A DNA stretch of 32,000 bases. It comes from Phycisphaera mikurensis NBRC 102666. GTDB lineage: Bacteria > Planctomycetota > Phycisphaerae > Phycisphaerales > Phycisphaeraceae. The translations under genes were made by a program, and so were the position numbers. This document shows positions 2,862 through 30,193 of this stretch, in pieces (position 1 is the first letter of the stretch; every line of letters starts with the position of its first letter). Location of the stretch: assembly GCF_000284115.1 (NCBI RefSeq), contig NC_017080.1:1110001-1142000 (forward strand), written 5' to 3'. The notes below the pieces were generated by a model, which made no database searches, was not told where the DNA came from, and saw nothing but the letters and a program-made list of their open reading frames with translations.

Positions 2862-2878
2862 GGGGATTCGGGGGGAGG

Positions 2879-2923
2879 CCGCGGACCGTGCGGCCCGGGG
2901 GGGGAAACGTCGACGGTCCGCGG
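2879..2923 (-). repeat. REP-like intergenic palindrome, copy B (CCGCGGACCGT-N23-ACGGTCCGCGG)
   Basis: Perfect 11-bp inverted arms at 2879-2889 and 2913-2923. It lies 10 nt 3' of the stop of the upstream GH10 gene (2933) and 18 nt 5' of the next start (2861). Confidence 0.7.
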
Positions 2924-2932
2924 GTGGAGGGC

Positions 2933-6553: not shown

Positions 6554-7348
6554 TCAGGGGCGGCGGCGACGCAGCAGCGCCAGCGAGCCGAGGCCGGCGA
6601 GGGCGAGGGTGCCCGGCTCGGGCACGACCCCGACCTCCAGGTTGTCCAGCGCGATCGTGCGGCGGGTGGTGGTGCTGGCGGTCGGGCCGAACTGCAGGGT
6701 GATCTGCCCGAAGTTCGCCGGGTTGGTCCGCAGCGCGGCGGCGCTTGCCTGCTGCACGCCATCGACCAAGAGCGAGTACGTGCCCGCGTCGAAGTCGATC
6801 ACGCCGTCGACGTTGACGAAGCGGCTGCCCGCGTCGTCGAAGTCGAAGTTCTGGCCGTTGCCGTTCAGGACGTTCGTGGCCGTCGTCCCGTCGTTGTATT
6901 GGAAGCGGCCGTTATCGAAGACCTGGAAGTCCAGGATCGGGTTGCCATCGGTGTTGCCGATGCGGATGCGGTGGGCCACGCCGAAGCCGTCGGCGTCGCC
7001 GGCGTTGGCGCTGCGGATGTCGAAGCCGAAGTCGAACAGCTTGCCGGCGGTGGAGGTGTCGGAGGCGCCGAGGAAGGCGGCGTCGGGGGTGAAGCGGTTG
7101 TTGGCGAAGTTGTTCCCGACGCTGCTGGCGGACTGGGCGATGCCGCCGCCTCCGAAGCTGTCGACGGTGTAAAGGGTGCCGTTGCCAGCGAAGCTCGGGC
7201 CGCCGCCGGAGGGCTGGCCGCTGAGCGAGCTGCCCAGCGTGAACCCGTCGGCGGGGTCGAAGGTGATCACGCCCGCCGAGGCCGGGGCGGCGGCGAGCGC
7301 CGCGACGGGGGCGAGGGCGGCGGCGAGACGCAAGGGGGAAGCAGGCAT
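6554..7348 (-). CDS. PEP-CTERM sorting-domain protein, beta-rich lectin-like ectodomain
   Basis: The C-terminus [24 protein letters not shown] is the PEP motif, a TM helix and an Arg cluster. The N-terminus is a signal peptide, [27 protein letters not shown] prefer the ATG at 7348, which is preceded by GGAG (TTGGAGATTCCCATG). The track start at 7360 is a TTG inside that Shine-Dalgarno region. Confidence 0.85.
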
Positions 7349-17610: not shown

Positions 17611-19659
17611 TCAGGCCCGGGCCGGGGCGAGCGTCCACCAGCCGAAGGACCGGGCCCGCGGGAGGCGGAGGCGGAGCTCGCGTCCGCACGGTTCCAGAGC
17701 CTCCGCGGCGGCGGGGAGGCGGAGCCGTGCCGGTCCGATGGCGTCCCAGGGAAGGCCGAGCGTCCGCTCGGAAGCGGGGTGATTCTCGCGGAACGCGAGC
17801 AGGTGACGCGGGCGCGAGGGGTCGGCCGGCGCGACCGCGAAGCCGGTCCAGCCGAATCCATCGGGCTCGTCGCCGACGGGGACGACGGTCGCGCCGACCC
17901 AGTCGGCCCGCGCCTCTCGCCACGCCCGGATCACGGGCCCGGCCTCCCGCCGCCGCTCGGGCGCGAGGCGCTGCAACTCCATCCAAGCCAGCGGCGCCGC
18001 GACCATGACCGAGGCGAAGGCGTAGGCGGCGGAGCAACCCCGCGGCGCGAGCGCGTCGTCGGCGTAGCGGTCCGGGTTGCGGTCGGGGTTCAACCACTCC
18101 ATCCGCAGCCGGCTGGGCTCGACCCAGCGGGCGAGCTGCCAGAGCGTGCGGAGGGTGAGGTGCGGGAACCAGCTGCCCCAGTCGGTGTAGCGGTTCTGGA
18201 CGAAGACCGGACCGGCGTCGGGCCGCCCCAGGAAGTCCGGCCGCTTGCCGGCGGTGGCGTCGAGGTCCAGCGTGATGCGCTCGTCGCCGCCGGCGCCGGC
18301 CAGCACCCGGTCGATCATCCGGTGAAACCGCGACTCGCCGAGGCCGCTGTCGATGACGACCGCGTCGATCTTGAAGTGGGTGACGCCGAGCGTGCGGTGC
18401 AGGCCAAGAAGCGTCTGGGCGTCGCGGCGCCAGTTGGCGAAGTCCGCGGAGGAGTCGGGCGCGTACCACAGCCCCAGCCGCACGCCACGCGCCCGCGCGG
18501 CGTCGACCAGCGGTGTCAGCCCCCGCGGGAAGCGATCCGGGTGGGGCGACCAGAAGCCCTCGCTCTCGAAGAAGCCCGACCACTTCCCGCCCGCCTCGGT
18601 GGAGTTGGCGGAGCGCCCGGCCTGCCAGCCGTCGTCGATCTGCACGACGTCGACGCCGAGTTCGGCGGCGGCTTCGATCTCCCCGAGGACGAACGCCTCG
18701 CCCACGCGGCCGTCCCGGCCGCGGTCGCCCCAGGTGTTGCTGACCATCCAGCGGTCGGCCGCGGTCGGCACGCGGAGCCGGTGCTCGTGGTGCTGCAGCG
18801 CGGCGACGCGGCCGGCGACGCCGCCGCCGTGGAGCACGACGGCGTGCCAGTCGCCGATCCGCCAGCCCTCTTCTGCGTCGGGTTGCAGCGGCTCCTCGGT
18901 CAGCTCCAGCGTGCCGGCGTCGGCGAGCAAGTCGGGCCGTTGCCTCCGGCCCGGCGGTGCCGAACCCGGCAGGAGCCCGTGGCGGAGCAGGACGAGCCCG
19001 TCGCCGGAGAACGGTTCCACCAGGGCGAAGAGGTTGCCGTCGAGCGCGAGCTTCCGCTCGCCGCGCAGCCGGCCGAAGCGCCGCGGCTGCACCACCTCGC
19101 ACCGCTCGTCGGTGCGGCCGTGCAGCTCAACCGCTTCGAGCCGGAGATGGGCGGGAGCCAGCGGCAGCCGCTCGATCACGTTCCTGGCGCGGGCGTCGGT
19201 GGCCCGGGCCGCCGGCTCCACACCCTCCATCTCCACGCCGTCGCTGGTCCCGATCGCCGCCGTGCCCGCCGCGCCCGCCGCGTCCGAGCCATCGGCCCGC
19301 TGGGCGTGCCGCGTACGCACCACCGCCAGCCCCGGGAAGATCGCGACGTGCAGCCGCCGGTCCGGCGAGGCGAGCACGACCCGCAGGGCGGGAGCCTGAG
19401 CCGGAGGCGCGGGCCGCGGATCCGGCGCAAGGGTGAAGCCCGCGGCATCGGCGTCGGCACCGGCGTCCGCCCTCTCCCGCACGAGCCACTCCCGCTTCGA
19501 CCGCTCGTCGCGGAGGCTCGCAGCGAGCGGGACGCCGCCTGCGATCCGCCAGCGCCGCGTGATCGCGGCGTTGCCGACCTCCAGCACGCCGCCGCTCCAC
19601 GAGGCGTGGCAATCGTCCAGACGCAGCGGCGGTGTCGGCGGCGGGGCGGTGTCGGACAT
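17611..19659 (-). CDS. Clan GH-D alpha-galactosidase-like glycoside hydrolase (GH36-like), no signal peptide
   Basis: 682-aa ORF. The motif VVQIDDGWQAGR is the DDGW motif of GH27/GH36. It is followed by GVRLGLWYAPD and GVTHFKIDAV (K-x-D nucleophile-region pattern). The N-terminus MSDTAPPPTPPLRLDD has no hydrophobic leader. Confidence 0.6.
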   Translation of the reverse strand: MSDTAPPPTPPLRLDDCHASWSGGVLEVGNAAITRRWRIAGGVPLAASLRDERSKREWLVRERADAGADADAAGFTLAPDPRPAPPAQAPALRVVLASPDRRLHVAIFPGLAVVRTRHAQRADGSDAAGAAGTAAIGTSDGVEMEGVEPAARATDARARNVIERLPLAPAHLRLEAVELHGRTDERCEVVQPRRFGRLRGERKLALDGNLFALVEPFSGDGLVLLRHGLLPGSAPPGRRQRPDLLADAGTLELTEEPLQPDAEEGWRIGDWHAVVLHGGGVAGRVAALQHHEHRLRVPTAADRWMVSNTWGDRGRDGRVGEAFVLGEIEAAAELGVDVVQIDDGWQAGRSANSTEAGGKWSGFFESEGFWSPHPDRFPRGLTPLVDAARARGVRLGLWYAPDSSADFANWRRDAQTLLGLHRTLGVTHFKIDAVVIDSGLGESRFHRMIDRVLAGAGGDERITLDLDATAGKRPDFLGRPDAGPVFVQNRYTDWGSWFPHLTLRTLWQLARWVEPSRLRMEWLNPDRNPDRYADDALAPRGCSAAYAFASVMVAAPLAWMELQRLAPERRREAGPVIRAWREARADWVGATVVPVGDEPDGFGWTGFAVAPADPSRPRHLLAFRENHPASERTLGLPWDAIGPARLRLPAAAEALEPCGRELRLRLPRARSFGWWTLAPARA

Positions 19660-19661
19660 CG

Positions 19662-22526
19662 TCAGCGATCGAGCACGAGGTAGAGCGCGTCCTCGGGAAG
19701 CTCGACCTCCAGCCGACCCTCCGCCCGCTCCACCGGGAGCTCACGCACGGGCAGGAAGTTCGCATCGGTGACGGTGGCTCGGAGCGGCCGGTCGTTCGCG
19801 AGCGAGAGCCGGCCCCGCAGACGCTCCACCCGCCACGGCGTCTCGCCGGTGTCGACGATGCGGGAGGCGGGACCCGCCTCGCCGTCGATCTCCAGCTCGA
19901 TCTCCTCGACCGTCCAGCCGGTGGGGCGGGCACGGGTGCCCATCTGCACGAGGATCCGCTCGCTGGTCGAGAGCGGCTGCGCGTCCAGCGAAACGGCGGC
20001 GACGGCGGCGTATTCGTTCTCGATGGAGAAGCGGGCATCGCCCAGGTCGATCGGCCCCGCCGCCCCGAGGAAGCCGACGGCGGCCTGCGCGCGCGGGCTC
20101 TGGATCCGGTAGACGCCCGCGTCGATGTCCAGGGCGGTCTGGCCGTTCCCGCCGCGGACCGCGCTCCCGTCCGCGGCGATGAACGCGCCGAGGTCGGCCA
20201 CCTCGCTGCGGTCCGCGGATCCGGCGTGGTAATCCACCAGCACCGGTCCCACGAGAAAGGCCAGCGGATCAACGAGCGTCTCGACCGCCGACGGCGCGGC
20301 CTGGAGCCCCTCGTCGCGGTTGGGGTCGAACGCGGAGGACTCGCTGGTGAGCGGCATTCTCCCGCCCCAGATGTCGGCGGGCGGCCGCGCTTCGACCACC
20401 ACCGGGTCGACCGGATCCACCATGGCTTCGCGGAACAGGAGCGCCGCCGCGGGGAACTGACCGAGCGTCATCGGCGTGGCGTACGTCCACTTGCGGGGGC
20501 CCTCGCGTCTTCTCGCCGACTCCCACTGCGGCGCGTGGTTGGCGAACCAGAAGAGAGCGTCGACGCCGCTCTGTGCCTGCTGGCTCGCGACGATCAGCGG
20601 GCCCTCCGCCTCATACCCGTTCGGCGGGACCCACAGGCTCTCGGTGATGAGGAAAGGGAAGCCTGCCGGCTGGCGCACGTTGTTGGGCAGCTCCCGCGGG
20701 TTCCTCGTGGCCGAGGCGTTGCGGAAGATGTGGTCCTCCTTGATCTGCCAGCCGCGGGTCCGCCCGGTGTGCAGCGCGGCGAAGTAGTGGTTCTTCGCCA
20801 TCACCTCGTTGCCGGCGTAGCTGTACCGCTCGGCGTCGTCGGCGAGCACGGGGTCGGACGTCCGCCAGTTTCCGGCGTTGATGAGCTGCGGGGCCCCGAG
20901 TTCCTCCCGGAGAAAGCGGGCGGTCTCCTCGTTGAAGCTCCGCATCTGGTGGGTCATGAAAGCGAGCTGGTCGCCGCGACGCTCGCGGAAGCCGGGGATG
21001 CGGCCCTTCTGTTCCAGCGCGTCCACCCCGTAGTCCCACGGGTGCAGGAGCGCCGGCAGGCCGTCCTTCCAGTCCTCTTCGGCGGGTCCGTGGGTGAAGC
21101 CTCGCCAGCGCTCTCTCACGGCATCCACCGAGCCGTGCTCCGCCACCAGCCAGTCGCGGAAGAGCCCGCGCAGGATCGTCTCCGCCTCGCCCTTGATCCG
21201 GCCAGCGGTGAAGAACAGCAGCGAGTCCTCGTTCTGCAGCTGGATGATGGCCACCGCCGGCTCGTTCTTGAGCGCGACGCCCGTGTACGGGTTCGGCCGG
21301 GTGTACAGCTCCCGCAGCCAGCCCCGGTACGCCGCCTGCACCTCGGGCACGAAGAAGACCAGACCCGAGAGGTTGCCGCTGCCGGAGTGCGGGAAGTCGT
21401 CCTTCCACGACCCGCGCACCTTGGTGTGGCTGCCCCAGTACGGGCTGAGGACCGAGTAGATCCCAGCCCGCTTCATCGCCGCGACCAGCTTGAACGCTTC
21501 GTCGAGGTTCTCCTCGTCGAGGGTCTCCAGCGTCGGGGCCTCCTTCTTGGCATCCGGCCAGCCGGCGCTGATGGAGAGGTCGCCGTGCCAGCGGACCACG
21601 TTGACGCCGCGCTTGGCAAGGAAGCGGCCGTGGTCCGCCAACTCGTCCACGGACAGCTCCTGCTGGTTGTAGTCGGTGCCGCCCCAGAAGCGGATCGGCC
21701 GGCCATCGCCCCGCACGAAGCTCATGCCGTCCGCGGAGAGCCCGATGAAGCCGTGCTCCCCGGCCACGGGCTCGTTGAGCGGCCGGAGGTCGAGCAGCGC
21801 CGCCTCGTCGAAGGTGTCGGTCGGCGGCTCGAACGCCCAGAGGTCCGCCGGGTCGGCGGTCTTCAGCCGGGGATTCGGCTCGCCCGGCTTGAACTCGCCG
21901 AGAGGCTCGAACGCCTCGGTCGCCAGCACCATCACGTCGAGCCCGGCGTGCGGCTTCTCCGAATCCGGGTCGCCGAACCAGACCTTCACCTCGTGGGTGC
22001 CGGCGTCGAGCTGCACCGGCTCCAGCCGGAGCCACGCGAGGTGGCGGGCGTCGGTCGCGCCGTCAGAGGCGAGGTTCCGCTCGTCCTGGACGGCGGGCTC
22101 GTGATCTCCGGCGCTTCGATCCTTCTGGTCCTCCGCCCGGATCGCTTCCGGGTCGATCTGCACCTCCGGCTCGCCGCCGAAGCGGATCGTCAGGTGCCCG
22201 TCGCCCGTGCCGACGCGGAGCCACGGCGTGTACCAGCCGGCCTCGGAGACTTCCACCTCGTACCGTGCCCAACCACGCTCTTGCCCCGGCTCGGAGAAGC
22301 TGTTGATCCACGCGTCGCCGGACATCTCCGCCACCCGGTGCGCGTCGTACCAGTCGTTGCGAAACGTTTCCTGCTCGGCGGCGTCTTCGCCTTCGATCCA
22401 GAGGATCTCGGCGCTCGCGGGGAGGGCGAGCAGGCACAACGCGGCGACGCGGCCAAGCGTTCGCGGGGCGGCGGCGGGACACACGCTCACCCCCCGAACG
22501 GGACGGTGGGTTTGCGGGACCCTCAT
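19662..22526 (-). CDS. Secreted large (954 aa) glycoside hydrolase-like protein: N-terminal CBM-like module + (beta/alpha)8 clan GH-A-like core, family unassigned
   Basis: ORF 19662..22709 trimmed to the ATG at 22526 (cat 22524-22526). The signal peptide is ...GRVAALCLLALPASAEILW. TIM-barrel-like segments are RFWGGTDYNQQ, RGVNVVRWHGDL and AVAIIQLQNEDSLLFF (an N-E acid/base-like motif). The start overlaps the upstream stop as ATGA. Confidence 0.6.
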   Translation of the reverse strand: MRVPQTHRPVRGVSVCPAAAPRTLGRVAALCLLALPASAEILWIEGEDAAEQETFRNDWYDAHRVAEMSGDAWINSFSEPGQERGWARYEVEVSEAGWYTPWLRVGTGDGHLTIRFGGEPEVQIDPEAIRAEDQKDRSAGDHEPAVQDERNLASDGATDARHLAWLRLEPVQLDAGTHEVKVWFGDPDSEKPHAGLDVMVLATEAFEPLGEFKPGEPNPRLKTADPADLWAFEPPTDTFDEAALLDLRPLNEPVAGEHGFIGLSADGMSFVRGDGRPIRFWGGTDYNQQELSVDELADHGRFLAKRGVNVVRWHGDLSISAGWPDAKKEAPTLETLDEENLDEAFKLVAAMKRAGIYSVLSPYWGSHTKVRGSWKDDFPHSGSGNLSGLVFFVPEVQAAYRGWLRELYTRPNPYTGVALKNEPAVAIIQLQNEDSLLFFTAGRIKGEAETILRGLFRDWLVAEHGSVDAVRERWRGFTHGPAEEDWKDGLPALLHPWDYGVDALEQKGRIPGFRERRGDQLAFMTHQMRSFNEETARFLREELGAPQLINAGNWRTSDPVLADDAERYSYAGNEVMAKNHYFAALHTGRTRGWQIKEDHIFRNASATRNPRELPNNVRQPAGFPFLITESLWVPPNGYEAEGPLIVASQQAQSGVDALFWFANHAPQWESARRREGPRKWTYATPMTLGQFPAAALLFREAMVDPVDPVVVEARPPADIWGGRMPLTSESSAFDPNRDEGLQAAPSAVETLVDPLAFLVGPVLVDYHAGSADRSEVADLGAFIAADGSAVRGGNGQTALDIDAGVYRIQSPRAQAAVGFLGAAGPIDLGDARFSIENEYAAVAAVSLDAQPLSTSERILVQMGTRARPTGWTVEEIELEIDGEAGPASRIVDTGETPWRVERLRGRLSLANDRPLRATVTDANFLPVRELPVERAEGRLEVELPEDALYLVLDR

Positions 22527-24178
22527 CGCGGCTCCGCGGCCGGCGGCGTCAGGCCGTAGTGCTCGATCAGCATCCTGTACTTGACCGCCTCGTCCAGCGG
22601 CTGGCCGAGGTGCTCCATGTGGCCCCACTGGCCGTTGCGGTTCCAGTTGTGGACGAGCACGAAGGGCGTGTTGCTCGCCAGGCCGCTGGCCTCGTGCCGC
22701 TCCAGCCATCGCTCGTAGAGGCCGGCGAACCGCGGCGTTCGCTCAACCTCGAAGAGGAAGTCGACGAAGGCGGGCTTGAGGTCGTAGATGGGGACCTTCT
22801 TGGGCTTGCCCTGCCCGTTGAGCTCCGGCTCGGGAGGCAGCACCCGCTTGCTGGCGATCAGGTGCGAGTTGCCCTCGTAGCTCACCACGGGGACGCCGGC
22901 CTTGGCCGCCAGCTCGTACTGGTGCGCGGGGGCGTGGTTGTCGGGCAGGAACTCGTCCTTGCGGAAGGGGCCGCTGCCCAGCCGGAGCTCCAGCTCGTCC
23001 ATGAAAGCCTCCGGCGTGACGGGCCAGCGCTCCATCGCCCACTCCTCCATGCCGTGCGAGAAGTAGGTGGTGATGGCGAGGACGTCGAAGTCGCGGCCGG
23101 GCTCGGCGGCCTCGAAACGCTTCCTCGTTTTCCAGCCCTTGCCGTGGTTGGTGTGGGTGCCGACCACCCGGACGAGGCGGTCGGTGCCGCCGAACTCCCG
23201 CTCGAAGATGCGGAAGACGTTGAGCGCCTTGGCCATGTACTTGTCCTCGACCCGCTCGCCGGGGACGTTCTGGTCGACCCACTTGGTCTGCTGGAACTGC
23301 CAGTTCCAGACTTCGTTGCTGTACTCGACCCAGACGCGGAGGCCCTCCTCGAGCGGCTCGCCGGTCTGCTCGCCGGTGGCGGGGTCGACGCCGGTGCGGA
23401 CCAGGGCGGCGAGGTTCCGCACGTAGTCGTCGGTGGCCAGGTGCGGCACGCAGAGCCACAGGTCGTTGCCCGTCTGGTTGCACAGCTCGACCATCGCCTC
23501 CCAGGCCGCGCCGCCCTTCACGGGCGTCTTGGCGTCGGAGCGCGTCAGCGTCTGCACGTAGGTGGGCCAGTCGGCGGGCGTGCGGTCGGCCCAGTCTCTC
23601 TGCTCGGAATGATTCGTGAGGCCCAGGTCCATGAAGCGGAGGTGGCTCCCGCGGAAAGGCTCGATCACCGCGAGGTACGCCGGGTTCCAGCGGCTCTTGA
23701 GCGTCTCGGTGCCGGGCAGGTAGAGGTGGAGGTCGCTCACGGGGAAGGCGTCGATCTCGATCTCGAAGCCGTAGCTCTCGACCTGCGGGACGCGGTACAC
23801 CCGGCGATGCACGCCGTCGTCTGTCTCGTCGTGGACGAGCTCTGCGGCGTGCGGGCGGTCCAGCCGTGCCTCGCCCCCGCCCCGCCAGGTGAGCACGTAC
23901 TCGCCGGCGGGGAAGGTGTCGCCGGCGTCGACGCCGATCCGGGCGTTCACGGTCTTGCCGGCGACGGCCCCGGTCGGGTAGCCCCGCTCGTCCCAGCCCG
24001 CGACGTTCAGCCACCTGGCGGTCTTCACCAGGTCGTTGAAGGGGCTGTAGGACATGTAGTAGTTCAGGCCGCCGAGGCCCGGGCCGACGCGTGCGAAGTC
24101 CGCGGGTGCGGCGGATGCGGAGCGGGCGCCGAGCGAGGCGACGAGGAGACAGGCGAAGCGGAGAAGCGGGTGGCGCAT
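22523..24178 (-). CDS. Secreted 551-aa glycoside hydrolase-like protein, family unassigned
   Basis: Signal peptide MRHPLLRFACLLVASLGARSASAAPAD. Motifs are GSHLRFMDLGLTNHSEQ and VWVEYSNEVWNWQF (an N-E motif typical of retaining TIM-barrel hydrolases). Codon bias is strong, and the gene is operonic with flanking CAZyme genes. Confidence 0.5.
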   Translation of the reverse strand: MRHPLLRFACLLVASLGARSASAAPADFARVGPGLGGLNYYMSYSPFNDLVKTARWLNVAGWDERGYPTGAVAGKTVNARIGVDAGDTFPAGEYVLTWRGGGEARLDRPHAAELVHDETDDGVHRRVYRVPQVESYGFEIEIDAFPVSDLHLYLPGTETLKSRWNPAYLAVIEPFRGSHLRFMDLGLTNHSEQRDWADRTPADWPTYVQTLTRSDAKTPVKGGAAWEAMVELCNQTGNDLWLCVPHLATDDYVRNLAALVRTGVDPATGEQTGEPLEEGLRVWVEYSNEVWNWQFQQTKWVDQNVPGERVEDKYMAKALNVFRIFEREFGGTDRLVRVVGTHTNHGKGWKTRKRFEAAEPGRDFDVLAITTYFSHGMEEWAMERWPVTPEAFMDELELRLGSGPFRKDEFLPDNHAPAHQYELAAKAGVPVVSYEGNSHLIASKRVLPPEPELNGQGKPKKVPIYDLKPAFVDFLFEVERTPRFAGLYERWLERHEASGLASNTPFVLVHNWNRNGQWGHMEHLGQPLDEAVKYRMLIEHYGLTPPAAEPR

Positions 24179-24212: not shown

Positions 24213-25697
24213 TCAGGCGCCCACGCGGGCCAGCGGCGGGCGGTCGGGCAGCGTGTCGAGGTTCCAGCGGGCGAGCCGCTGCAGGAGGTCGCAGCGGGCC
24301 GCGGCCAGCGCCGGGTCGTCGATCCGGTTGTCCATCTCCCAGGGGTCGGCGGCGAGGTCGTACAGCTCGTCGCCGCCGGCCTCGCGCACGACGAGCTTGT
24401 GGCGGTGGGTCCGCACCATCTGGGCGCGGGCGAGGCTGTCGGGCACGCGCTGGTAGGTCAGCTGCTTCCGCTGGTCCGGGTCGACGTCCCCGCGGGCCGC
24501 CATCGCGGCGCGGCTGGCGGGGTCGTGGCCGCCATCGGCGAAGACCGCCTCGCGCCCGGCCCGCTCCCCCTCGATCACCGGGAGCAGGCTGCGGCCGTGG
24601 GCGCCGGGCAGCGGGGGCAGGTCCAGCAGGTCGAGCAGCGTCGGGGCCAGGTCCGTGTGATCGGTGAGCGCCTCCAGGCGGCGACCGGCGGGCAGCGACG
24701 GCGCGACGATCGCCGCGGGCACGTGCGTCAGGCAGTCGCAGAAGGAGGTGTCCCACTTCTCGACGAGCCCGTGCTGGCCGGCGTAGTCGCCGTGGTCGCT
24801 CCAGAGCAGCACGACCGTGTCATCGAAGAGGCCCTGCGCCTCGATGGCCCCGACGACCTGCCCCATCAGGTGGTCGACCTTGGCGATCATGCCCAGGTAC
24901 ACGGCCTGGATCTCGCGAAGGGCGGCTTCGTTCTCTTCGACGTCGGCCCCTGTCCGGTGCTCCCGCTGCGCGGTCATCGGCAGCGGGGCCCCCGCGGGCA
25001 AACCGCGCGGCCAGGCCCGCAGGGCCTCGCGATCGACCCTGGAGAACCACGGTTCCTCGACCTTGTACGGGGTGTGCGGCCGCTCGAGGTTGAGCTGCAG
25101 GAAGAAGGGCCGGTCGCGGTCGCGGTGCTCGGTGACAAAAGACACCGCCTGCTCCGCGAAGGCCTCGTCGGTGGGGTAGGAGCCGCGCCCGGCGAAGTCG
25201 CAGCGGCTGCGGGCATCGGGCGGCATCACGCCGTGGGGGTCGGGCTCGGGCTCGGCGGCCGCCTCTGCGTGTCGCCGGTAGATCTCGGCGAAGGGCGGCT
25301 TCCAAGAGTGATGATCCAGGCGCTGCCCCCGCTTCCCGGGTTCCAGGTCCGGCGGCGTCTGGCTCGCCTCAAGCGCGTGCTCCCAGCAGTGGTTCTTGCC
25401 GAAGAGCGCGGTCTGGTAGCCCGCGTCGATGAGGGTCGAGAGCAGATCGGGCCGATCCGCGGGCAGGAGTTGGGTGATGTCGCGGTACCCGTCGGTGTGC
25501 GCGTAGCGGCCGGTGACCAAGCTCACCCGCGCCGGCGTGCACTTGGGGAAGGTCGAGAAGTGCCGGGACAGCAGCACGCCGCGGCCGCACAGGGCATCCA
25601 TGTGCGGCGTGTACGCGTCCGCGTCGAGGCCGTTGATGCCGAGGCAGTCGCCCCGCATCTGGTCGGTGCAGAGGATGACGAGGTTGCGTGCGGGCAT
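24213..25697 (-). CDS. Cys-type (formylglycine) sulfatase, no signal peptide
   Basis: ORF 24213..25796 trimmed to the ATG at 25697 (cat 25695-25697). The N-terminus is MPARNLVILCTDQMRGD. The sulfatase signature is CTPARVSLVTGRY (C-x-P-x-R), followed by WSDHGD. No N-terminal hydrophobic leader is present. Confidence 0.85.
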   Translation of the reverse strand: MPARNLVILCTDQMRGDCLGINGLDADAYTPHMDALCGRGVLLSRHFSTFPKCTPARVSLVTGRYAHTDGYRDITQLLPADRPDLLSTLIDAGYQTALFGKNHCWEHALEASQTPPDLEPGKRGQRLDHHSWKPPFAEIYRRHAEAAAEPEPDPHGVMPPDARSRCDFAGRGSYPTDEAFAEQAVSFVTEHRDRDRPFFLQLNLERPHTPYKVEEPWFSRVDREALRAWPRGLPAGAPLPMTAQREHRTGADVEENEAALREIQAVYLGMIAKVDHLMGQVVGAIEAQGLFDDTVVLLWSDHGDYAGQHGLVEKWDTSFCDCLTHVPAAIVAPSLPAGRRLEALTDHTDLAPTLLDLLDLPPLPGAHGRSLLPVIEGERAGREAVFADGGHDPASRAAMAARGDVDPDQRKQLTYQRVPDSLARAQMVRTHRHKLVVREAGGDELYDLAADPWEMDNRIDDPALAAARCDLLQRLARWNLDTLPDRPPLARVGA

Positions 25698-25756: not shown

Positions 25757-26536
25757 TCAGAAATCGAAGTCGCTCTGCAGCTCCGCGGCGTTCCATTCAT
25801 TGACGCTGAAGCCGCTGCCGTCCACCCGGGCGAGGTTCACCACGCCCGCGTGGTCGTCGATGCTGCCGTCCTGGGCGACCTGCCAGGGCATCTGGTTCGC
25901 CTGTTCGCCGGGTGCTCCCGCGGGGTTCTCCGCCGCGATGGTGCGGGAGTCGAAGGTCCACTCCCCGCCGATGAGCCGGCCGTCCCCGTCGCCGAGCATC
26001 ACGACGTTGGTCGGGACCCGCTCGAGCCGGACCGGGCGGACCCGGAAGTCGAAGGGGCCGATGCCCGGGCCTCCGCCGCCGCTGGACCCGTTGCGGTCGC
26101 CCTGCAGGTTCGTGTTCATCGCGTAATGGCAGATCGAGTTGATGTTGTCCCGCAGCGGCAGGTCGCTGGCGAAGGGGCAGTTCCACACGAAACCCGAGGC
26201 CGCGGCGAGGTTCTTGGTGCCGACGGCCTCGACGTCTTGGATGTAGTCCGTGGTCCGCATGCGGCGGAACCAGTCCCCGGGGATCTCCGGCGGGCGGACC
26301 GACGCGGCCTCCGCGGCATTCCCGCGGAACCGGTAAGGCAGGTAGCCCTTGTGGTCGGCGGCGTAGGTATGGAAACCGATCGACAGCTGCCGCAGGTTGC
26401 TGCCGCAGGACATGCTGCGGGCCGCGGCGCGGGCGGCGCCGAGTGCCGGCAGCAGGATGCCGATCAGCAGCGCGATGATGCTGATCACCACGAGCAGCTC
26501 GATGAGGGTAAAGCCTTGGCGGGCGGTTCTGGACAT
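25757..26536 (-). CDS. Prepilin-type N-terminal cleavage/methylation domain protein (DUF1559 / H-X9-DG orphan pseudopilin)
   Basis: The N-terminus is [36 protein letters not shown]. Its 29 residues from GFTL are identical to the gene at 4858-5703. The C-terminal [13 protein letters not shown] is an exact H-X9-DG motif. Confidence 0.85.
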
Positions 26537-26633
26537 GAAAGAACCTTTGGAGGAGCGAGAGGTGGAGAAGGCCCCCGCTCGCCGTTGGGCGGGCCGGGGA
26601 GAGCGGGTGTTCGGGGAGAGCGGCGGTCGGGCG

Positions 26634-27446
26634 TCAGCGACGACGGCCCATCATCAGCAGCCCGCCAGCACCCAGAAGCGCCAGCGACGCGGGCTCGGGG
26701 ATCACGGCGTTGAAGTCATCGAAGCTGGTGGTTCCCACGCCGCCGTTCCCGCCCGCGACGCCGATCACGCCGAGCCGGTACTCGGTGTCTTCTTCCTGAA
26801 AGCCGGAGAACTGGGCACTGGTGATCGACTGGGACGCGGTGCCGGTGTCGAAGACGACGCTGCCGTTGACATCGGTGACGACGGCGGAGGTGTCGACCTG
26901 CCAGTCGTTGCCGCCGTTGTTGGTGACGGTCGAAGTCAGATCGACCTCCAGCGGGCCGCCGGAGAAGTTGGCAAGCACCGACTGCGAGATGGACTCCTGG
27001 AAGCGGGTGCCGGAGTTGGCGGTGAAGCGGATCCGGTCGTCGCTCCCGAGGAAGAAGACCGAGAGCCCGCTGATCACGCCGTCGTTCAGGGCGGACTTGT
27101 TGCCGTCGCTGGTGCCGATCTCGAAGATCGTGGCGCTGCCGCTGCTGCCGGACCCGTTGGCCAGCTGGCCGATGGTGAAGCTGACGTTGACGGTGCCTTC
27201 CGTGACCGCGGCGTTGATGCCCTTGGTCAGGTAGGCGCGGTCGCCGGAGAAGTTGTCTCCGCCGTCGTTGGCCTCGATCTGGCCGACGCCGGTGAGGGTC
27301 GCGTTGCCGGCGGTGACGGCGGTGTCCCAGTCGTACGGCGACACGCCGTCGAAGTCACTGGAGAAGTTGAGGCTGGCCGACGCACTCCCGGCGCATCCGA
27401 GGGCAAGGGCGAGGCAGGCGGTGGTGGTGGTGGGGAAAGGATGCAT
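26634..27446 (-). CDS. PEP-CTERM sorting-domain protein, beta-rich lectin-like ectodomain
   Basis: The C-terminus is [24 protein letters not shown] prefer the ATG at 27446 ([24 protein letters not shown]), which is preceded by GGAGG 9 nt upstream. The track start at 27470 would add 8 residues. Confidence 0.85.
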
Positions 27447-27494: not shown

Positions 27495-28550
27495 TCAGGC
27501 CCGCGTGGAACGGGCAACGCTGCCCGTGCGGTGAAACTCGAAAGGCAGGACGACCGGGCTCCGCGGTGTGTCTGAAGCTCCGATCAGCGCCGTCAACTCC
27601 GCCACCGCCGCTGCGCCCATGCGGAAATGCGGGGTCAGGACGCGGTCGAGCGCGAAGTCTTCGCCGCTGGCGGCGTGGTTGTCGAAGGTGATCAGCGAGA
27701 GGTCTTCGGGCAGCCGCAGCGACAGCGACAACGCCGCCATCGCCATCACGCGGCCGTGCTCGTTGGAGCAGATCATCGCGGTGGGGCGGTCGGGCCGCTG
27801 GAGCATCCGCACGCACTCCTCGAAGAGGCGGCCGGGCGCGTACACGCCGCGGACGCGAGGACGAAGCGTCTCGATCCGGGGCTTGAGCCCCCGCTCCCGC
27901 ATCGCCCGGGCGTAGCCGACCCGCCGGTCGGCCACGCTGTAGTGGTGCTCCTCGCTGGTGAGGTCATCGGCTTCCGAAGCGCGGTCCACGAACCACGCGC
28001 TGCGGTGCCCGTGGTCGAGCACGAAGCGGGTCGCCTCCAAGGCGGCGCCTTCATCGGCGGGGTGGACGCAGTTGCTCTCGCGCTTGCGATTGATCCAGAA
28101 GGAGGGGATGTGGCAGCGGTCGATCAGGTCGCGGACCGTCGCCGGCGTGCCGAAGACGTAGTTGATCAGCAGGCCGTCGACGGCGTTCTCGCGGACGATC
28201 CGCGGGGCGCGGGCGTCGTCGTCGCCGCGGTGAAGCGGCGAGTCGATGACGTCGCGGAGCAGGCAGAGGCCTCGCTCATGGAGCGCGTGGTCGAGCCCGG
28301 CGTCGAACTCGGGGGCGTGCACCGAGCGGGAAAGCTCCGGGCTGCGGATCATCCCCAGGTAGCCGGTGCGGCCGTTGCGGGTCGCGGCGGCGGCCGCGTT
28401 GGGCCGGTAGCCGAGGGCGGCCGCGGCGGCGAAGACCCGCTGGCGGGTCGATTCCGCGACGCGGCCTTTGCCGCTGAAGGACCGCGACACCGTCATGTGC
28501 GTGACGCCGACGGCACGGGCGACGTCGTTGAGCGTGGGGGCGTTCGACAT
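27495..28550 (-). CDS. LacI-family transcriptional regulator (LacI-2)
   Basis: ORF 27495..28640 trimmed to the ATG at 28550 (cat 28548-28550). The HTH is MSNAPTLNDVARAVGVTHMTVSRSFSGKGRVAESTRQRVFAAAAALGYRPNAAAAATR. It shares GYRPNAAA.ATR.G with LacI-1. Confidence 0.85.
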   Translation of the reverse strand: MSNAPTLNDVARAVGVTHMTVSRSFSGKGRVAESTRQRVFAAAAALGYRPNAAAAATRNGRTGYLGMIRSPELSRSVHAPEFDAGLDHALHERGLCLLRDVIDSPLHRGDDDARAPRIVRENAVDGLLINYVFGTPATVRDLIDRCHIPSFWINRKRESNCVHPADEGAALEATRFVLDHGHRSAWFVDRASEADDLTSEEHHYSVADRRVGYARAMRERGLKPRIETLRPRVRGVYAPGRLFEECVRMLQRPDRPTAMICSNEHGRVMAMAALSLSLRLPEDLSLITFDNHAASGEDFALDRVLTPHFRMGAAAVAELTALIGASDTPRSPVVLPFEFHRTGSVARSTRA

Positions 28551-28612: not shown

Positions 28613-28640
28613 ATGTTATCGTGAGAGCAACGGCTGTCAA
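28613..28640 (-). promoter_or_regulatory. Candidate sigma70-like promoter for LacI-2 and its operon (TTGACA-N16-TAACAT on the minus strand)
   Basis: On the minus strand, a consensus TTGACA lies at 28640-28635 and TAACAT at 28618-28613, with a 16-nt spacer. They sit inside the only AT-richer patch of the 176-bp divergent intergenic region, and would give a leader of about 55 nt to the ATG at 28550. Confidence 0.4.
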
Positions 28641-28726: not shown

Positions 28727-30193
28727 ATGAACGCCCGCCCCAACGTCCTGTGGATCTGCACCGACAGCCAGCGGTGGGACACGCTGGGCTGCTACGGCAA
28801 CGGCTGGGTCGCCACGCCGAACCTCGACCGGCTCGCCGCCGGCGGCGTCCGTTTCGCCAACGCCTTCAGCCAGAGCCCGCTGTGTACGCCCAGCCGCGGG
28901 AGCTTCCTCACCGGCCGCTACCCGGTGACCAACCGCCTGCGGCAGAACGGGCAGGAGTGCCCGCCGGACCTGCGGCCGGTCACCCGCGACCTCGCGGACG
29001 CCGGCTACGCCTGCGGGCTTGTCGGCAAGCTGCACCTCAACCCCTGCGACCGCCGGCTGGCGCTGGGCCCGGACTGGTGGAAGAGCGACAAGCGGGACTG
29101 GTTCCGCGGGGCAGAGCCGCGGCTGGACGACGGGTACTCGGTGTTCGAGTGGGACCACGCCGCCAAGAGCGAGGACCCGGCGAGCGCCTACGGCCGCTGG
29201 CTCCGCGGCCGCGGGGTGAGCGTGCCGCTGGAGAAGCCGCCACGGGAGGATTGTGGATCCGTGCGGGTCGGCCCCTCGGTCGAGAACCACCAGAGCACCT
29301 GGGGCTGCGAGCGGGCGATGACCTTCGTCGAGAGCTACGCCGATGACCCGCACCCGTGGCTGCTGTCGCTGAATCTGTTCGACCCGCACTTCCCCTTCGA
29401 CCCGCCGCCGGAGCTGCTGGATCGCCACCTCGACCGGCTCGACGACATCCCCCTGCCGGTCGACGCGGACCGGGAGCCCGCGACGCACCCGGCGTGGCGG
29501 CGGCGTTGGGCGGAGCGCGACGCGGGCCGGAGCGAACGGGAGCACCGGCTGGTCCGCGCTGCCTACTGGGCGATGATCGACCTCCTCGACGCGCAGGTCG
29601 GCCGCCTGCTCGACACGCTCGACCGCACCGGGCAGAGAGAGGACACCCTGGTGATCTTCACCAGCGACCACGGCGAGATGCTCGGCGACCACGGGCTCTA
29701 CAAGAAGGGTCCGGCCCTGTACGAGCCCGCGGTGCACGTGCCGCTGATCCTCTCGCAGCCCGAGACGCTCCCGGCGGGGGAGGTCGTGGACGAGCTGGTG
29801 GAGCTTTCGGACCTGGTGCCGACGCTGCGGGAACGCTGCGGGCTGGAGCCGGGGGCCGCGGTGCAGGGCCGCTCGCTCGCGCCGCTGCTGGGCGGCGACG
29901 GTGACGGCGGCGACGGTCCCTGGCGCGACAGCGTCTACGCCGAGTACCTCAACGCGAATCCGGACGAGCCGCCGGTGTACCTGACGATGCTCCGCACCCG
30001 CGACGCGAAGCTGATCCGCTGCCACGGCGGCGAGGGCAGCGCGCTCTTCGACCTCGCGGCCGACCCGCACGAGCAGCGGAACCTCTGGGCCGATCCCGGG
30101 TCCGCCGCACGCAAGACCGACATGCTTCTCCGCCTCACCGACCGGCAGGCACGCACGGCCGATCCGCTGCCGCGCCGCGTCGGCGTCTTCTGA
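28727..30193 (+). CDS. Cys-type (formylglycine) sulfatase, no signal peptide
   Basis: I prefer the ATG at 28727 (MNARPNVLWICTDSQRWD); the track start at 28694 is a TTG. The sulfatase signature is CTPSRGSFLTGRYP, followed by FTSDHGEMLGDHG. The gene is divergent from LacI-2. Confidence 0.85.
   Translation: MNARPNVLWICTDSQRWDTLGCYGNGWVATPNLDRLAAGGVRFANAFSQSPLCTPSRGSFLTGRYPVTNRLRQNGQECPPDLRPVTRDLADAGYACGLVGKLHLNPCDRRLALGPDWWKSDKRDWFRGAEPRLDDGYSVFEWDHAAKSEDPASAYGRWLRGRGVSVPLEKPPREDCGSVRVGPSVENHQSTWGCERAMTFVESYADDPHPWLLSLNLFDPHFPFDPPPELLDRHLDRLDDIPLPVDADREPATHPAWRRRWAERDAGRSEREHRLVRAAYWAMIDLLDAQVGRLLDTLDRTGQREDTLVIFTSDHGEMLGDHGLYKKGPALYEPAVHVPLILSQPETLPAGEVVDELVELSDLVPTLRERCGLEPGAAVQGRSLAPLLGGDGDGGDGPWRDSVYAEYLNANPDEPPVYLTMLRTRDAKLIRCHGGEGSALFDLAADPHEQRNLWADPGSAARKTDMLLRLTDRQARTADPLPRRVGVF

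What the first reader, a model, noticed from the sequence alone, without database searches (positions are those of the whole stretch)
25757..27446. Recurrent PEP-CTERM lectin-like + orphan H-X9-DG pseudopilin pair inside CAZyme operons; candidate glycan capture/uptake module
The same unusual pairing occurs twice in 32 kb, at 26634-27446 + 25757-26536 and at 6554-7348 + 4858-5703. In each case a roughly 265-aa beta-rich secreted protein ending in a PEP-CTERM anchor is followed by a prepilin-type DUF1559 protein. The two pseudopilins share 29 identical N-terminal residues, [29 protein letters not shown]. Each pair sits directly downstream of a LacI regulator and directly upstream of secreted and cytoplasmic glycan-degrading enzymes, all co-oriented with short gaps. 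The window contains no type II secretion or type IV pilus machinery and no exosortase, so both partners are orphan substrates of systems encoded elsewhere. DUF1559 proteins are known to be massively expanded in Planctomycetes without an assigned function. The fixed position relative to the regulator and the enzymes suggests a substrate-specific surface module, functionally analogous to the binding/uptake pair of Bacteroidota polysaccharide utilisation loci. In that model the PEP-CTERM protein binds glycan and the pseudopilin tips or primes a retractile fibre. As far as I know this has not been described as a defined system.
Basis: partly seen in the sequence, partly recalled or inferred. Interest (0 to 1): 0.78.

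Follow-up and report, generated by a model that had tools for sequence, protein, structure and literature searches.

The report
Surface-protein plus pseudopilin module in glycan operons
Two sugar-polymer-degrading operons of the marine bacterium Phycisphaera mikurensis each begin with a regulator, a cell-surface-anchored lectin-like protein and a private pilin-like protein, an arrangement that recurs in related bacteria and gives concrete candidates for the unproven 'fishing-rod' model of polysaccharide capture in this group.

Summary
The window is Phycisphaera mikurensis. Two co-oriented operons run LacI regulator, then a PEP-CTERM secreted protein, then a DUF1559-type pseudopilin, then enzymes: GH10 xylanases in one, sulfatase plus unknown enzymes in the other. 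In the first operon the two genes are not adjacent; a missed 232-aa secreted-protein gene (5784-6482) lies between them.

The same layout recurs in Phycisphaeraceae with other enzyme sets (GH16, GH25, BNR/LamG, an ABC importer) and once in Lentisphaerae. It is not a general DUF1559 trait: only 2 of 80 PVC-wide DUF1559 loci have it, and both also carry LacI and glycan genes.

PEP-CTERM protein 1 models confidently as a ConA-like lectin/glucanase jelly-roll. The model of protein 2 failed. In orthologous sulfatase loci the regulator, pilin head and 551-aa enzyme stay 52-58% identical, yet the PEP-CTERM ectodomain is replaced by unrelated sequence. This argues against a fixed two-protein complex.

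Best reading: an inducible surface module of planctomycete polysaccharide-utilisation loci, made of exosortase-anchored glycan binders plus an operon-specific subunit of a shared pilus or pseudopilus. The mechanism is inferred, not shown. A general pilin 'fishing-rod' idea is published; this architecture was not found in the literature searched. New variant of a known kind; interest about 0.6.

The parts
28613..28640 (-). Sigma-70-like promoter candidate (TTGACA-16-TAACAT) upstream of LacI gene 2
   Evidence: 1 site found against 0.1 expected in shuffles. The TTG that the ORF listing took as the LacI start is the -35 hexamer.
27495..28550 (-). LacI-family regulator of cluster 2 (351 aa from ATG 28550)
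   Evidence: LacI HTH 5.4e-16, Peripla_BP_3 2.9e-13. Orthologues in L090 and L091 are 56-58% identical.
26634..27446 (-). PEP-CTERM protein 2 (270 aa): signal peptide, beta-rich ectodomain, [23 protein letters not shown] tail
   Evidence: 100% identical to an NCBI P. mikurensis protein. It is nearly an orphan. The structure model is unusable.
25757..26536 (-). Pseudopilin 2 (259 aa): prepilin leader, conserved alpha-1 helix, DUF1559 start, H-X9-DG at residue 229
   Evidence: Orthologues are 59-82% identical.
24213..25697 (-). Sulfatase without a signal peptide (probable start MPARNLV at 25697)
   Evidence: Sulfatase 2.4e-40.
22523..24178 (-). Secreted 551-aa protein of unknown family, conserved with the module in L090 and L091
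   Evidence: Searches found no family or PDB match; 52-54% identical orthologues; widespread distant relatives.
19662..22526 (-). Large unknown protein. Probable start at 22526, overlapping the upstream stop codon as ATGA
17611..19659 (-). Cytoplasmic melibiase/GH97-like glycosidase, last gene of cluster 2
   Evidence: weak Melibiase hit, 5.4e-06.
28727..30193 (+). Divergently transcribed sulfatase
   Evidence: Sulfatase 1.2e-43. The same divergent arrangement occurs in L001, L090 and L091.
7425..8492 (-). LacI-family regulator of cluster 1
   Evidence: Orthologues are 38-80% identical.
6554..7348 (-). PEP-CTERM protein 1 (264 aa): ConA-like jelly-roll ectodomain
   Evidence: pLDDT 86.5; matches lectin, PL7 and GH131 folds.
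5784..6482 (-). No PEP-CTERM tail
   Evidence: GC3 0.96-1.00, signal peptide; faint DNRLRE hit; 63% identical orthologue in L009. CBM96-like proteins occupy this slot in L007, L008 and L009.
4858..5703 (-). Pseudopilin 1 (281 aa): same alpha-1 helix, different head domain, H-X11-DG
   Evidence: The head domain is 44-45% identical in L003 and L006.
2933..4765 (-). Secreted GH10 xylanase-family enzyme b
   Evidence: 3.4e-45; signal peptide.
1026..2930 (-). GH10 xylanase-family enzyme a (true start unresolved; the ORF runs up to 3209)
   Evidence: 9.8e-42.

Best explanation
Both gene sets form the 5' 'surface module' of two LacI-controlled polysaccharide-utilisation operons of Phycisphaera mikurensis. 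One operon is for xylan (GH10). The other is for a sulfated glycan (sulfatases plus unknown enzymes).

On induction the operon makes three kinds of product:
1. One or more Sec-exported, exosortase-sorted (PEP-CTERM) non-catalytic beta-jelly-roll or CBM-like proteins. These sit on the cell surface and most likely bind the polymer.
2. One operon-specific DUF1559 pseudopilin. Its near-invariant alpha-1 helix lets it be processed by machinery encoded elsewhere and built into a shared type II secretion / type IV pilus-like filament. Its variable head domain gives that filament a substrate-specific role in capturing the glycan or handing it across the envelope.
3. Secreted and cytoplasmic enzymes. 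In related loci an ABC importer is also encoded, completing breakdown and uptake.

Shown: the gene content, the order, the conservation and the fold of one binder. Inferred: glycan binding, filament incorporation and the capture role.
For: Operon anatomy:
- Genes are co-oriented and tightly spaced, with one promoter-like site ahead of LacI and no terminator-like sites on the coding strand.

Conservation:
- The xylan locus is conserved in seven other Phycisphaerae loci, with all parts 37-80% identical.
- The sulfatase locus is conserved in L001, L002, L090 and L091.

Independent recurrences of the same layout with other enzymes:
- P. mikurensis L092: a GntR/PBP regulator, a PEP-CTERM protein, a pilin, then an ABC binding protein and permeases. 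The same locus has a second pilin followed by a PEP-CTERM-tailed GH25.
- L173, carrying a protein that NCBI assigns to Algisphaera agarilytica: LacI, two PEP-CTERM genes, two pilins, then GH16.
- L018, and L053 from Lentisphaerae.

Fold and pilin features:
- PEP-CTERM 1 has a ConA-like lectin/glucanase fold (pLDDT 86.5; Foldseek probability 1.0 to sialidase lectin domains, PL7, GH131 and a legume-lectin-like inhibitor).
- CBM96-like proteins, and dockerin repeats on homologues of PEP-CTERM protein 1, occur in the same slot.
- The pilin alpha-1 matches filament-forming PilA and GspG (E 4.5e-10 to 1e-4). It is kept identical between paralogues by purifying selection, as expected if all of them use one assembly machine.

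Specificity:
- PVC-wide, DUF1559 neighbours are heterogeneous. Only 2 of 80 loci have a PEP-CTERM neighbour, and both also have LacI and glycan genes.
- 80 loci anchored on distant relatives of the 551-aa enzyme contain no pilin gene at all.

Literature:
- Dextran binds pili-like fibres of planctomycetes (PMC5394234).
- The 'fishing-rod' pilin hypothesis is reviewed in PMC12078418.
- N_methyl+SBP_bac_10 proteins are found in membrane fractions and are 'often flanked by' genes for signal-peptide proteins (PMC8567305).
Against: - No experiment or transcript data were available. Co-transcription is inferred from spacing alone.
- Glycan binding is untested. A ConA-like fold also occurs in enzymes (PL7, GH131), so protein 1 could be catalytic.
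- The PEP-CTERM 2 model failed.
- PEP-CTERM ectodomains are replaced by unrelated sequence in orthologous loci, so no fixed pilin/binder complex is implied.
- One xylan locus (L011) has LacI, pilin and GH10 with no PEP-CTERM gene.
- Most DUF1559 genes in other PVC lineages lie in non-glycan contexts.
- L092 and the L003/L006 loci already encode a classical ABC binding protein, so the pilin is not needed for solute binding.
- No pilus machinery lies nearby that could link the pilin to a particular filament.
- A genome-wide census of both families in P. mikurensis could not be made.
Confidence: 0.5

Rival explanations
1. The pseudopilin is an operon-specific export adaptor. It joins the type II secretion pseudopilus and recruits or pushes out the operon's own exoproteins (PEP-CTERM proteins and secreted enzymes). 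It would not contact the glycan.
For: - The N-terminal 60-126 residues match the major pseudopilin GspG, and NCBI names these proteins 'type II secretion system protein'.
- All neighbours that need to cross the outer membrane carry Sec signal peptides.
- Seeger et al. note that such genes are often flanked by signal-peptide genes (PMC8567305).
- This reading would also explain the heterogeneous secreted neighbours PVC-wide.
- The pilin head co-diverges with the secreted 551-aa enzyme rather than with the PEP-CTERM protein.
- The type II secretion system is up-regulated during fucoidan degradation by a planctomycete (PMC11685898).
Against: - To my knowledge, no cargo-specific major-type pseudopilin is known in any type II system.
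- Some neighbours are cytoplasmic (sulfatase 1, the GH36-like enzyme).
- The exported partners vary while the pilin stays the same.
- Nothing here tests export.
Confidence: 0.25
2. There is no specific coupling. PEP-CTERM is simply the default surface-anchoring signal in Phycisphaeraceae and DUF1559 proteins are an abundant family. Both accumulate in secretome-rich glycan operons. The DUF1559 protein acts on its own, for example as a membrane-anchored periplasmic binding or hand-over protein ('PulG-like putative transporter').
For: - Enzymes in these loci also carry PEP-CTERM tails: polysaccharide lyases in L003 and L006, GH25 in L092, and the BNR-like protein in L018.
- A third PEP-CTERM gene in the window (10402-12084) has no pilin partner.
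- L011 has a pilin without a PEP-CTERM gene.
- PEP-CTERM partners are interchangeable.
- In L092 the pilin directly precedes ABC transporter genes.
- Pfam and NCBI names hint at a solute-binding or transporter idea.
Against: - The position is strikingly fixed. PEP-CTERM non-catalytic proteins and pilin(s) sit together at the 5' end right after the regulator in at least 12 loci.
- 6 of 7 PEP-CTERM genes are directly adjacent to a pilin in pilin-anchored loci.
- Tandem [PEP-CTERM, pilin] x2 in L091 suggests the unit duplicates as a unit. L173 holds two of each, ordered PEP-PEP-pilin-pilin rather than as repeated pairs.
- Identity of the 29-residue helix maintained by selection is more than a membrane anchor needs.
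- Classical binding proteins are already present where ABC importers occur.
Confidence: 0.2
3. Chance adjacency of two multi-copy families within one 32-kb window.
For: Both families are multi-copy, and the window was picked because the pattern was noticed.
Against: The same layout occurs in orthologous and non-orthologous loci from several genera and one other phylum. It is significant in a permutation test on loci not chosen for PEP-CTERM genes. Control loci show essentially no false positives.
Confidence: 0.03

Closest known systems
Bacteroidota polysaccharide utilisation loci (SusC/SusD plus surface glycan-binding proteins)
   Same: A substrate-specific, regulator-linked operon that puts non-catalytic surface proteins next to secreted and intracellular glycan enzymes. 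There is one private set per substrate.
   Different: No TonB-dependent transporter or SusD homologue is present. Anchoring is by PEP-CTERM/exosortase rather than lipoprotein export. A pilin-like protein takes the place of the transporter pair. The regulator is LacI/GntR-type. The resemblance is analogy only.
Type II secretion major pseudopilin GspG/PulG and type IV major pilins (PilA)
   Same: Prepilin leader, G|F cleavage site, Glu5, and an alpha-1 helix that aligns over 57-126 residues.
   Different: All scores fall far below the equivalog cut-offs (27-32 bits against 88.85). The head domain of about 190 aa is unrelated and carries a DUF1559 start and an H-X9/11-DG motif. The genes lie in catabolic operons, not in gsp or pil clusters, and many paralogues exist per genome.
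DUF1559 / SBP_bac_10 (PF07596) N_methyl proteins of Planctomycetes, Verrucomicrobia and Lentisphaerae
   Same: Pfam scores are above the gathering threshold. The domain order is the same and the family shows the same massive paralogy (5296 relatives with E <= 1e-10 among the candidates scored).
   Different: Only the first ~36 model positions align, so these are short (259-281 aa), divergent members. The embedding in LacI/PEP-CTERM/CAZyme loci is not typical of the family (2 of 80 loci).
PEP-CTERM/exosortase-sorted surface proteins (Haft's system; e.g. floc-forming PepA, NF038120-type families)
   Same: Signal peptide plus a C-terminal PEP motif, a transmembrane helix and an Arg cluster. There are weak sub-threshold hits to several PEP-CTERM families.
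   Different: To my knowledge, known PEP-CTERM proteins are linked to EPS or floc formation loci and to exosortase genes. Here they sit in catabolic operons beside pilin genes, some homologues carry dockerin-type repeats, and no exosortase is nearby.
Planctomycete 'fishing-rod' fibre hypothesis (Boedeker et al. 2017, PMC5394234; review PMC12078418)
   Same: It proposes that dedicated pilin-like proteins form fibres that bind polysaccharide and pull it into the periplasm.
   Different: The published work is microscopy in Planctomycetia, and the passages of those papers that I read name no subunit genes. Here candidate subunits are identified by operon context in Phycisphaerae, together with PEP-CTERM partners.

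Membership tests
Prepilin-type (type IV pilin-like) proteins, PF07963/TIGR02532 | Short basic leader ending in Gly, Phe at +1, Glu at +5, and a hydrophobic alpha-1 of about 20 residues | tested here: met
   (RQG|FTLIELLVV...). N_methyl 31.5 and 31.6 bits against 21.2; TIGR02532 28.2 and 29.5 bits against 16.3; alpha-1 matches PilA and GspG.
Prepilin-type (type IV pilin-like) proteins, PF07963/TIGR02532 | Processing by a prepilin peptidase and assembly by a T2SS/T4P platform and ATPase | not testable with these tools
   No such genes occur in the window. The whole genome could not be surveyed.
T2SS major pseudopilin GspG (TIGR01710 equivalog) | Full-length match above the 88.85-bit cut-off, within a gsp operon | tested here: not met
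   27.7 and 32.0 bits, N-terminal part only. No gsp genes lie nearby.
DUF1559 / SBP_bac_10 (PF07596) | Pfam score above the gathering threshold | tested here: met
   31.4 and 40.1 bits against 23.3. Only model positions 2-37 of 268 align.
DUF1559 / SBP_bac_10 (PF07596) | C-terminal H-X9-DG motif | tested here: inconclusive
   pseudopilin 2 has [12 protein letters not shown] (X9). Pseudopilin 1 has H-X11-DG. No NCBIfam H-X9-DG model was reported at E <= 0.01.
PEP-CTERM exosortase substrates (PF07589/TIGR02595) | N-terminal signal peptide plus a C-terminal P-E-P motif, a transmembrane helix and a basic cluster | tested here: met
   Protein 1: Pfam 30.0 bits against 20.7. Protein 2: TIGR02595 20.9 bits against 16, with Pfam 20.0, just under its cut-off.
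PEP-CTERM exosortase substrates (PF07589/TIGR02595) | An exosortase (EpsH/Xrt) encoded in the genome | not testable with these tools
   None is in the window. The genome-wide check was not possible.
Concanavalin A-like lectin/glucanase fold | Beta-jelly-roll sandwich with significant structural matches to lectins or glucanases | tested here: met
   PEP-CTERM 1 only; pLDDT 86.5, pTM 0.80; 363 PDB matches with E <= 0.001; TM 0.4-0.5 to sialidase lectin domains, PL7, GH131 and 1dhk_B.
Concanavalin A-like lectin/glucanase fold | The same fold for PEP-CTERM 2 | tested here: inconclusive
   pLDDT 37.7, unusable; hhalign 94% probability to the protein 1 family over 175 columns, but this includes the shared tail.
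Concanavalin A-like lectin/glucanase fold | Actual carbohydrate binding | not testable with these tools
   This needs binding assays.
Bacteroidota-type PUL | Adjacent susC-like TonB-dependent transporter and susD-like genes | tested here: not met
   neither family is present in the window or in related loci.
CAZyme gene cluster (regulator + CAZymes ± transporter) | At least one CAZyme with a regulator or transporter within two genes | tested here: met
   (LacI + GH10 x2; LacI + sulfatase + GH-like). An ABC importer is present in the related loci L003, L006 and L092. The definition follows PMC11131199.
Verru_Chthon cassette (TIGR02596 protein D) | Score above the 70-bit cut-off, with cassette partners A-C present | tested here: not met
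   20.3 and 22.6 bits, N-terminal helix only.

The most novel reading that the evidence does not exclude
The operon-encoded DUF1559 pseudopilins are the long-sought substrate-specific subunits of the planctomycete polysaccharide 'fishing-rod' fibres. Each glycan operon would supply its own head domain to one shared retractile filament. Exosortase-anchored lectin-like proteins would act as the cell-surface acceptors. Together they would form a pilus-based counterpart of the SusC/D capture system, and this would explain the massive DUF1559 expansions in the PVC superphylum.
Probability: 0.3. Interest if true: 0.85.

Novelty: new variant of a known kind. Interest (0 to 1): 0.62.

Why it matters
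Planctomycetota are major degraders of algal and plant polysaccharides. How they bind and import polymers is unknown, their CAZyme clusters have not been characterised functionally (PMC11131199), and the large DUF1559 pilin-like family has no assigned function.

A conserved, regulator-linked module puts a private pseudopilin and private surface lectin-like proteins at the head of substrate-specific operons. This turns a microscopy-based hypothesis (fibres that bind dextran) into named genes. Those genes can be deleted, tagged, expressed and tested on defined substrates such as xylan, sulfated galactans and beta-glucans.

It would also define a PUL-like signature usable for annotating Phycisphaerae genomes and MAGs.

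Tried and rejected
- Sensitive all-against-library search with the PEP-CTERM 2 ectodomain: only one close relative and three weak ones. No family could be built, and the AF2 model from four sequences failed.
- Search for LacI operator palindromes in the intergenic regions: nothing convincing.
- No intrinsic terminators on the coding strand and only one promoter-like site.
- Scan anchored on the 551-aa enzyme in metagenomes, to see whether the module travels with the enzyme: only distant (24-31% identical) relatives were returned, with no pilins. This is useful only as a negative control.
- Test of whether the intervening 232-aa protein is CBM96-like: hhalign 3% probability, with only a shared FLxxDTNG motif. 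Pfam found nothing even at E = 5.
- L015 and L074 'PEP-CTERM-like' tails near pilins were not confirmed by Pfam and lie in non-glycan contexts. I did not count them.
- NCBI's name 'DUF1559 family PulG-like putative transporter' could not be traced to an NCBIfam model.
- Look-up of P. mikurensis paralogue P0056 failed.
- PDB sequence searches for the 551-aa and 1015-aa proteins gave nothing significant.
- Gene conversion as the cause of the 29-residue identity is rejected: there are 10 synonymous differences in 87 nt.
Full report
**Origin and gene map**

PEP-CTERM protein 2 is 100% identical to a Phycisphaera mikurensis protein on a 3.8-Mb contig. The window is 68-75% G+C, so raw ORF lists are full of artefacts. 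I therefore called genes by third-position GC and checked them with Pfam and NCBIfam.

Cluster 1 lies on the minus strand:
- LacI regulator, 7425-8492
- PEP-CTERM protein 1, 6554-7348
- a 232-aa secreted protein, 5784-6482
- pseudopilin 1, 4858-5703
- GH10, 2933-4765
- GH10, 1026 to about 2930
- an unknown gene, 3-1025

Cluster 2 also lies on the minus strand:
- LacI regulator, 27495-28550
- PEP-CTERM protein 2, 26634-27446
- pseudopilin 2, 25757-26536
- sulfatase, 24213-25697
- secreted 551-aa unknown, 22523-24178
- roughly 950-aa unknown, 19662-22526
- melibiase-like glycosidase, 17611-19659

A sulfatase and a rhamnosidase-like gene diverge from the cluster 2 regulator. Gaps are 48-97 nt in the 5' part. 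Among the enzyme genes the gaps are small or the genes overlap, including an ATGA stop/start overlap. One sigma-70-like site lies upstream of LacI 2 (28640-28613; 1 found against 0.1 expected). No terminator-like sites fall on the coding strand. Co-transcription is therefore plausible but only inferred.

**Checking the observation**

The core observation holds.
- Both PEP-CTERM tails and both prepilin/DUF1559 N-termini score above the curated cut-offs.
- The 29-residue identity is exact. It is maintained by purifying selection: the DNA is 77/87 identical and every difference is synonymous.
- No secretion or pilus machinery and no exosortase is present in the window.

Five corrections are needed.
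1. In cluster 1 a real gene lies between the two 'partners' (third-position GC 0.96-1.00; signal peptide [23 protein letters not shown]).
2. Only pseudopilin 2 has H-X9-DG. Pseudopilin 1 has H-X11-DG.
3. The pseudopilins share only their first ~65 residues. Pfam DUF1559 aligns only to model positions 2-37 of 268.
4. The two PEP-CTERM proteins are not homologous by BLAST (E 0.21). Profile comparison gives 94% probability over 175 columns, but that stretch includes the shared tail.
5. A third PEP-CTERM gene (10402-12084, plus strand) has no pilin neighbour.

**What the proteins are**

PEP-CTERM protein 1 belongs to a small Phycisphaerae family: 19 sequences at 40-57% identity. With that alignment AlphaFold gives a confident beta-sandwich (pLDDT 86.5, pTM 0.80). 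Foldseek against the PDB returns 363 matches at E <= 0.001. They are led by the lectin-like domains of sialidases and trans-sialidases, PL7 alginate lyases, GH131 glucanases, the botulinum-toxin Hc-N lectin-like domain and a legume-lectin-like inhibitor, at TM 0.4-0.5. This is the ConA-like lectin/glucanase fold. It is compatible with a carbohydrate binder but does not exclude an enzyme.

Several family members carry dockerin-type repeats before the PEP-CTERM tail (Pfam PF00404).

PEP-CTERM protein 2 is nearly an orphan. It has one 87% relative and three weak hits among 1.8 billion cluster representatives. Its model is unusable (pLDDT 37.7).

The pseudopilins match solved structures only through alpha-1: Geobacter and Thermus PilA at E 4.5e-10 to 1e-7, and GspG at 1.2e-4. 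NCBI names relatives 'type II secretion system protein' or 'DUF1559 family PulG-like putative transporter'.

**Is the arrangement conserved?**

Yes, within Phycisphaerae.

Xylan locus. Mucisphaera calidilacus and six metagenomic or MAG loci carry LacI, then 1-3 paralogues of PEP-CTERM protein 1, then a CBM96-like protein (usually also PEP-CTERM-tailed), then an N_methyl/DUF1559 pilin, then GH10. In L003 and L006 these are followed by a polysaccharide lyase and an ABC binding protein with permeases. All components co-diverge: LacI 38-80%, PEP-CTERM protein 1 47-57%, pilin head 44-45% in L003 and L006 (30% in L008), GH10 36-69%. The order varies. In L005 and L008 the pilin comes first.

Sulfatase locus. 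L001 and L002 (83-87% identical proteins), L090 and L091 keep the LacI, the pilin and the 551-aa enzyme. In L090 and L091:
- LacI is 56-58% identical, the pilin head 53-57% and the 551-aa enzyme 52-53%.
- The PEP-CTERM protein in the slot between regulator and pilin is unrelated in its ectodomain. Only the signal peptide or the tail aligns.
- L091 holds two tandem [PEP-CTERM, pilin] units.

**Does it recur independently?**

Pilin-anchored look-ups, not chosen for PEP-CTERM, gave further cases.
- P. mikurensis locus L092: a GntR/PBP regulator, an FAD oxidoreductase, a 383-aa PEP-CTERM protein, a pilin, then an ABC binding protein and two permeases. A second pilin in the same locus is followed by a PEP-CTERM-tailed GH25 and faces a divergent 304-aa PEP-CTERM protein.
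- L173, carrying a protein that NCBI assigns to Algisphaera agarilytica: LacI, two PEP-CTERM genes, two pilins, then GH16.

In a PVC-wide sample of 80 DUF1559 loci (1.16 Mb), only two have Pfam-supported PEP-CTERM genes within 10 kb.
- L018 (Phycisphaeraceae): two paralogous PEP-CTERM proteins, a pilin, a PEP-CTERM-tailed BNR-like protein, a LamG/FG-GAP protein, then a sodium:solute symporter, with a divergent LacI.
- L053 (Lentisphaerae): LacI, a PEP-CTERM protein, a pilin, a pectate-lyase-like protein, then a CBM9-like protein.

In both, the PEP-CTERM genes flank the pilin. Across L018, L053 and L092, 6 of 7 PEP-CTERM genes lie directly beside a pilin. Permutation gives p about 1e-5, which is optimistic because the genes are clustered; with loci as the unit, p is roughly 0.01-0.03.

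**Background**

- LacI lies near only 5 of the 80 loci.
- The immediate co-oriented neighbours of 99 DUF1559 genes are heterogeneous: TPR proteins, kinases, PQQ dehydrogenases, DUF1501, a serpin, and a few CAZymes.
- Eighty loci anchored on distant relatives of the 551-aa enzyme (0.97 Mb) contain no pilin and one PEP-CTERM gene.

The module is therefore lineage-restricted. It is an add-on to the enzymes, and it is strongly associated with LacI-type regulators and glycan enzymes where it occurs. One variant (L011) has LacI, pilin and GH10 without a PEP-CTERM gene.

**Mechanism**

I commit to the following. These are inducible polysaccharide-utilisation operons, and their first products form a surface module.
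- PEP-CTERM-anchored jelly-roll or CBM-like proteins bind the polymer at the cell surface. This is inferred from the fold, from CBM96-like proteins and dockerin repeats (the latter on protein 1 homologues) in the same slot, and from position.
- The pseudopilin uses its invariant alpha-1 to enter a shared T2SS/T4P-type filament. This is inferred from alpha-1 homology to filament-forming pilins, and from selection far beyond what a membrane anchor needs.
- Its variable head, which co-diverges with the regulator and the enzymes, provides substrate-specific capture or hand-over.

This fits the observation that gold-labelled dextran binds pili-like fibres of planctomycetes (PMC5394234). It also fits the 'fishing-rod' idea restated in a 2025 review (PMC12078418).

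The swap of PEP-CTERM ectodomains at a conserved slot argues against a fixed binder/pilin complex. It suggests fast-evolving, interchangeable surface binders.

Main rival: the pilin is a cargo-specific adaptor for type II export of the operon's exoproteins. This would also explain why such genes are 'often flanked by' signal-peptide genes in Tuwongella (PMC8567305).

Second rival: there is no specific coupling, since PEP-CTERM tails also decorate enzymes in these loci. Chance is essentially excluded.

**Novelty**

- No paper in the library mentions DUF1559 together with PEP-CTERM.
- DUF1559 is described only as an expanded PVC family of unknown function or as 'solute-binding'.
- CAZyme clusters in Planctomycetota are stated to be functionally uncharacterised (PMC11131199).
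- The general pilin-uptake hypothesis exists. The genomic architecture that nominates specific subunits and partners appears to be undescribed.

I classify it as a new variant of a known kind: a PUL-like locus with a pilin/exosortase-substrate surface module.

**Limits**

- No genome-wide census of either family was possible.
- No expression data were available.
- No structure was obtained for either pilin head or for PEP-CTERM protein 2.
- My gene calls in the background loci are heuristic.

Noticed in passing
window 5784-6482 (-): An unannotated-looking 232-aa secreted protein lies between PEP-CTERM 1 and pseudopilin 1. It has no Pfam hit and only a faint DNRLRE hit. A 63% identical orthologue exists in L009. 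It shares an FLxxDTNG motif with the CBM96-like proteins that occupy the same slot in other xylan loci, but hhalign does not support homology.
   Followed up: partly
window 22523-24178 (-): A secreted 551-aa protein with no Pfam, NCBIfam or PDB match. The family is very widespread: 504 of 600 candidate stretches in metagenomes encode relatives at 24-31% identity. The invariant EYSNEVWNW motif is reminiscent of the Asn-Glu acid/base motif of clan GH-A hydrolases, so it is a candidate new glycoside hydrolase family.
   Followed up: partly
window 19662-22526 (-): A large protein without family assignment. Its only similarity is a weak local match to GH5 mannanases (E 0.08). The probable start overlaps the upstream stop codon as ATGA, which suggests translational coupling with the 551-aa gene.
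   Followed up: partly
window 10402-12084 (+): A third PEP-CTERM protein: 560 aa, Gly/Asp-rich and repetitive, with a beta-helix-like look. It stands alone between the alanine racemase and HD-domain genes with no pilin partner, so not every PEP-CTERM gene is paired.
   Followed up: no
L090 7758-8942 and L091 8151-8909 versus window 26634-27446: At the orthologous slot the PEP-CTERM proteins keep a similar signal peptide (MHKFKTT... against MHPFPTTTT...) and tail but have unrelated ectodomains. This looks like cassette-style replacement or extreme divergence of a surface-exposed domain.
   Followed up: partly
L091 6408-9777; L173 7460-10828: Duplications of the module: [PEP-CTERM, pilin] x2 in L091, and PEP-CTERM x2 plus pilin x2 ahead of a GH16 in L173.
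   Followed up: partly
P0011, P0015, P0016, P0018, P0019; L003 8907-10052; L018 7946-8959: Dockerin-type (PF00404-like) repeats are inserted between the jelly-roll ectodomain and the PEP-CTERM tail in several homologues. No cohesin partner was looked for.
   Followed up: no
L003 12863-14764, L006 11946-13727, L092 14224-15003, L018 10807-12333: Enzymes in these loci also end in PEP-CTERM tails (polysaccharide lyases, a GH25 lysozyme, a BNR-like protein). PEP-CTERM therefore appears to be a general surface anchor for the glycan-degrading secretome of Phycisphaeraceae.
   Followed up: partly
window 28613-28640 (-): The TTG that mechanical ORF listing gives as the LacI 2 start is the -35 hexamer of a promoter-like site (TTGACA-16-TAACAT). 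The true start is probably ATG 28550.
   Followed up: yes
window 8938-10329 (+) and L009 4685-6283: An alanine racemase gene lies divergent from the xylan-locus LacI both in the window and in metagenomic locus L009 (LacI 80% identical). This indicates vertical inheritance of the whole neighbourhood.
   Followed up: no
window 1026-3209 (-): The GH10a ORF extends 277 nt into GH10b with an Arg-rich, implausible N-terminus, so its real start lies downstream and is unresolved. Both GH10 proteins carry long N-terminal regions (250-360 aa) without family hits, plus a CarboxypepD_reg-like domain.
   Followed up: no
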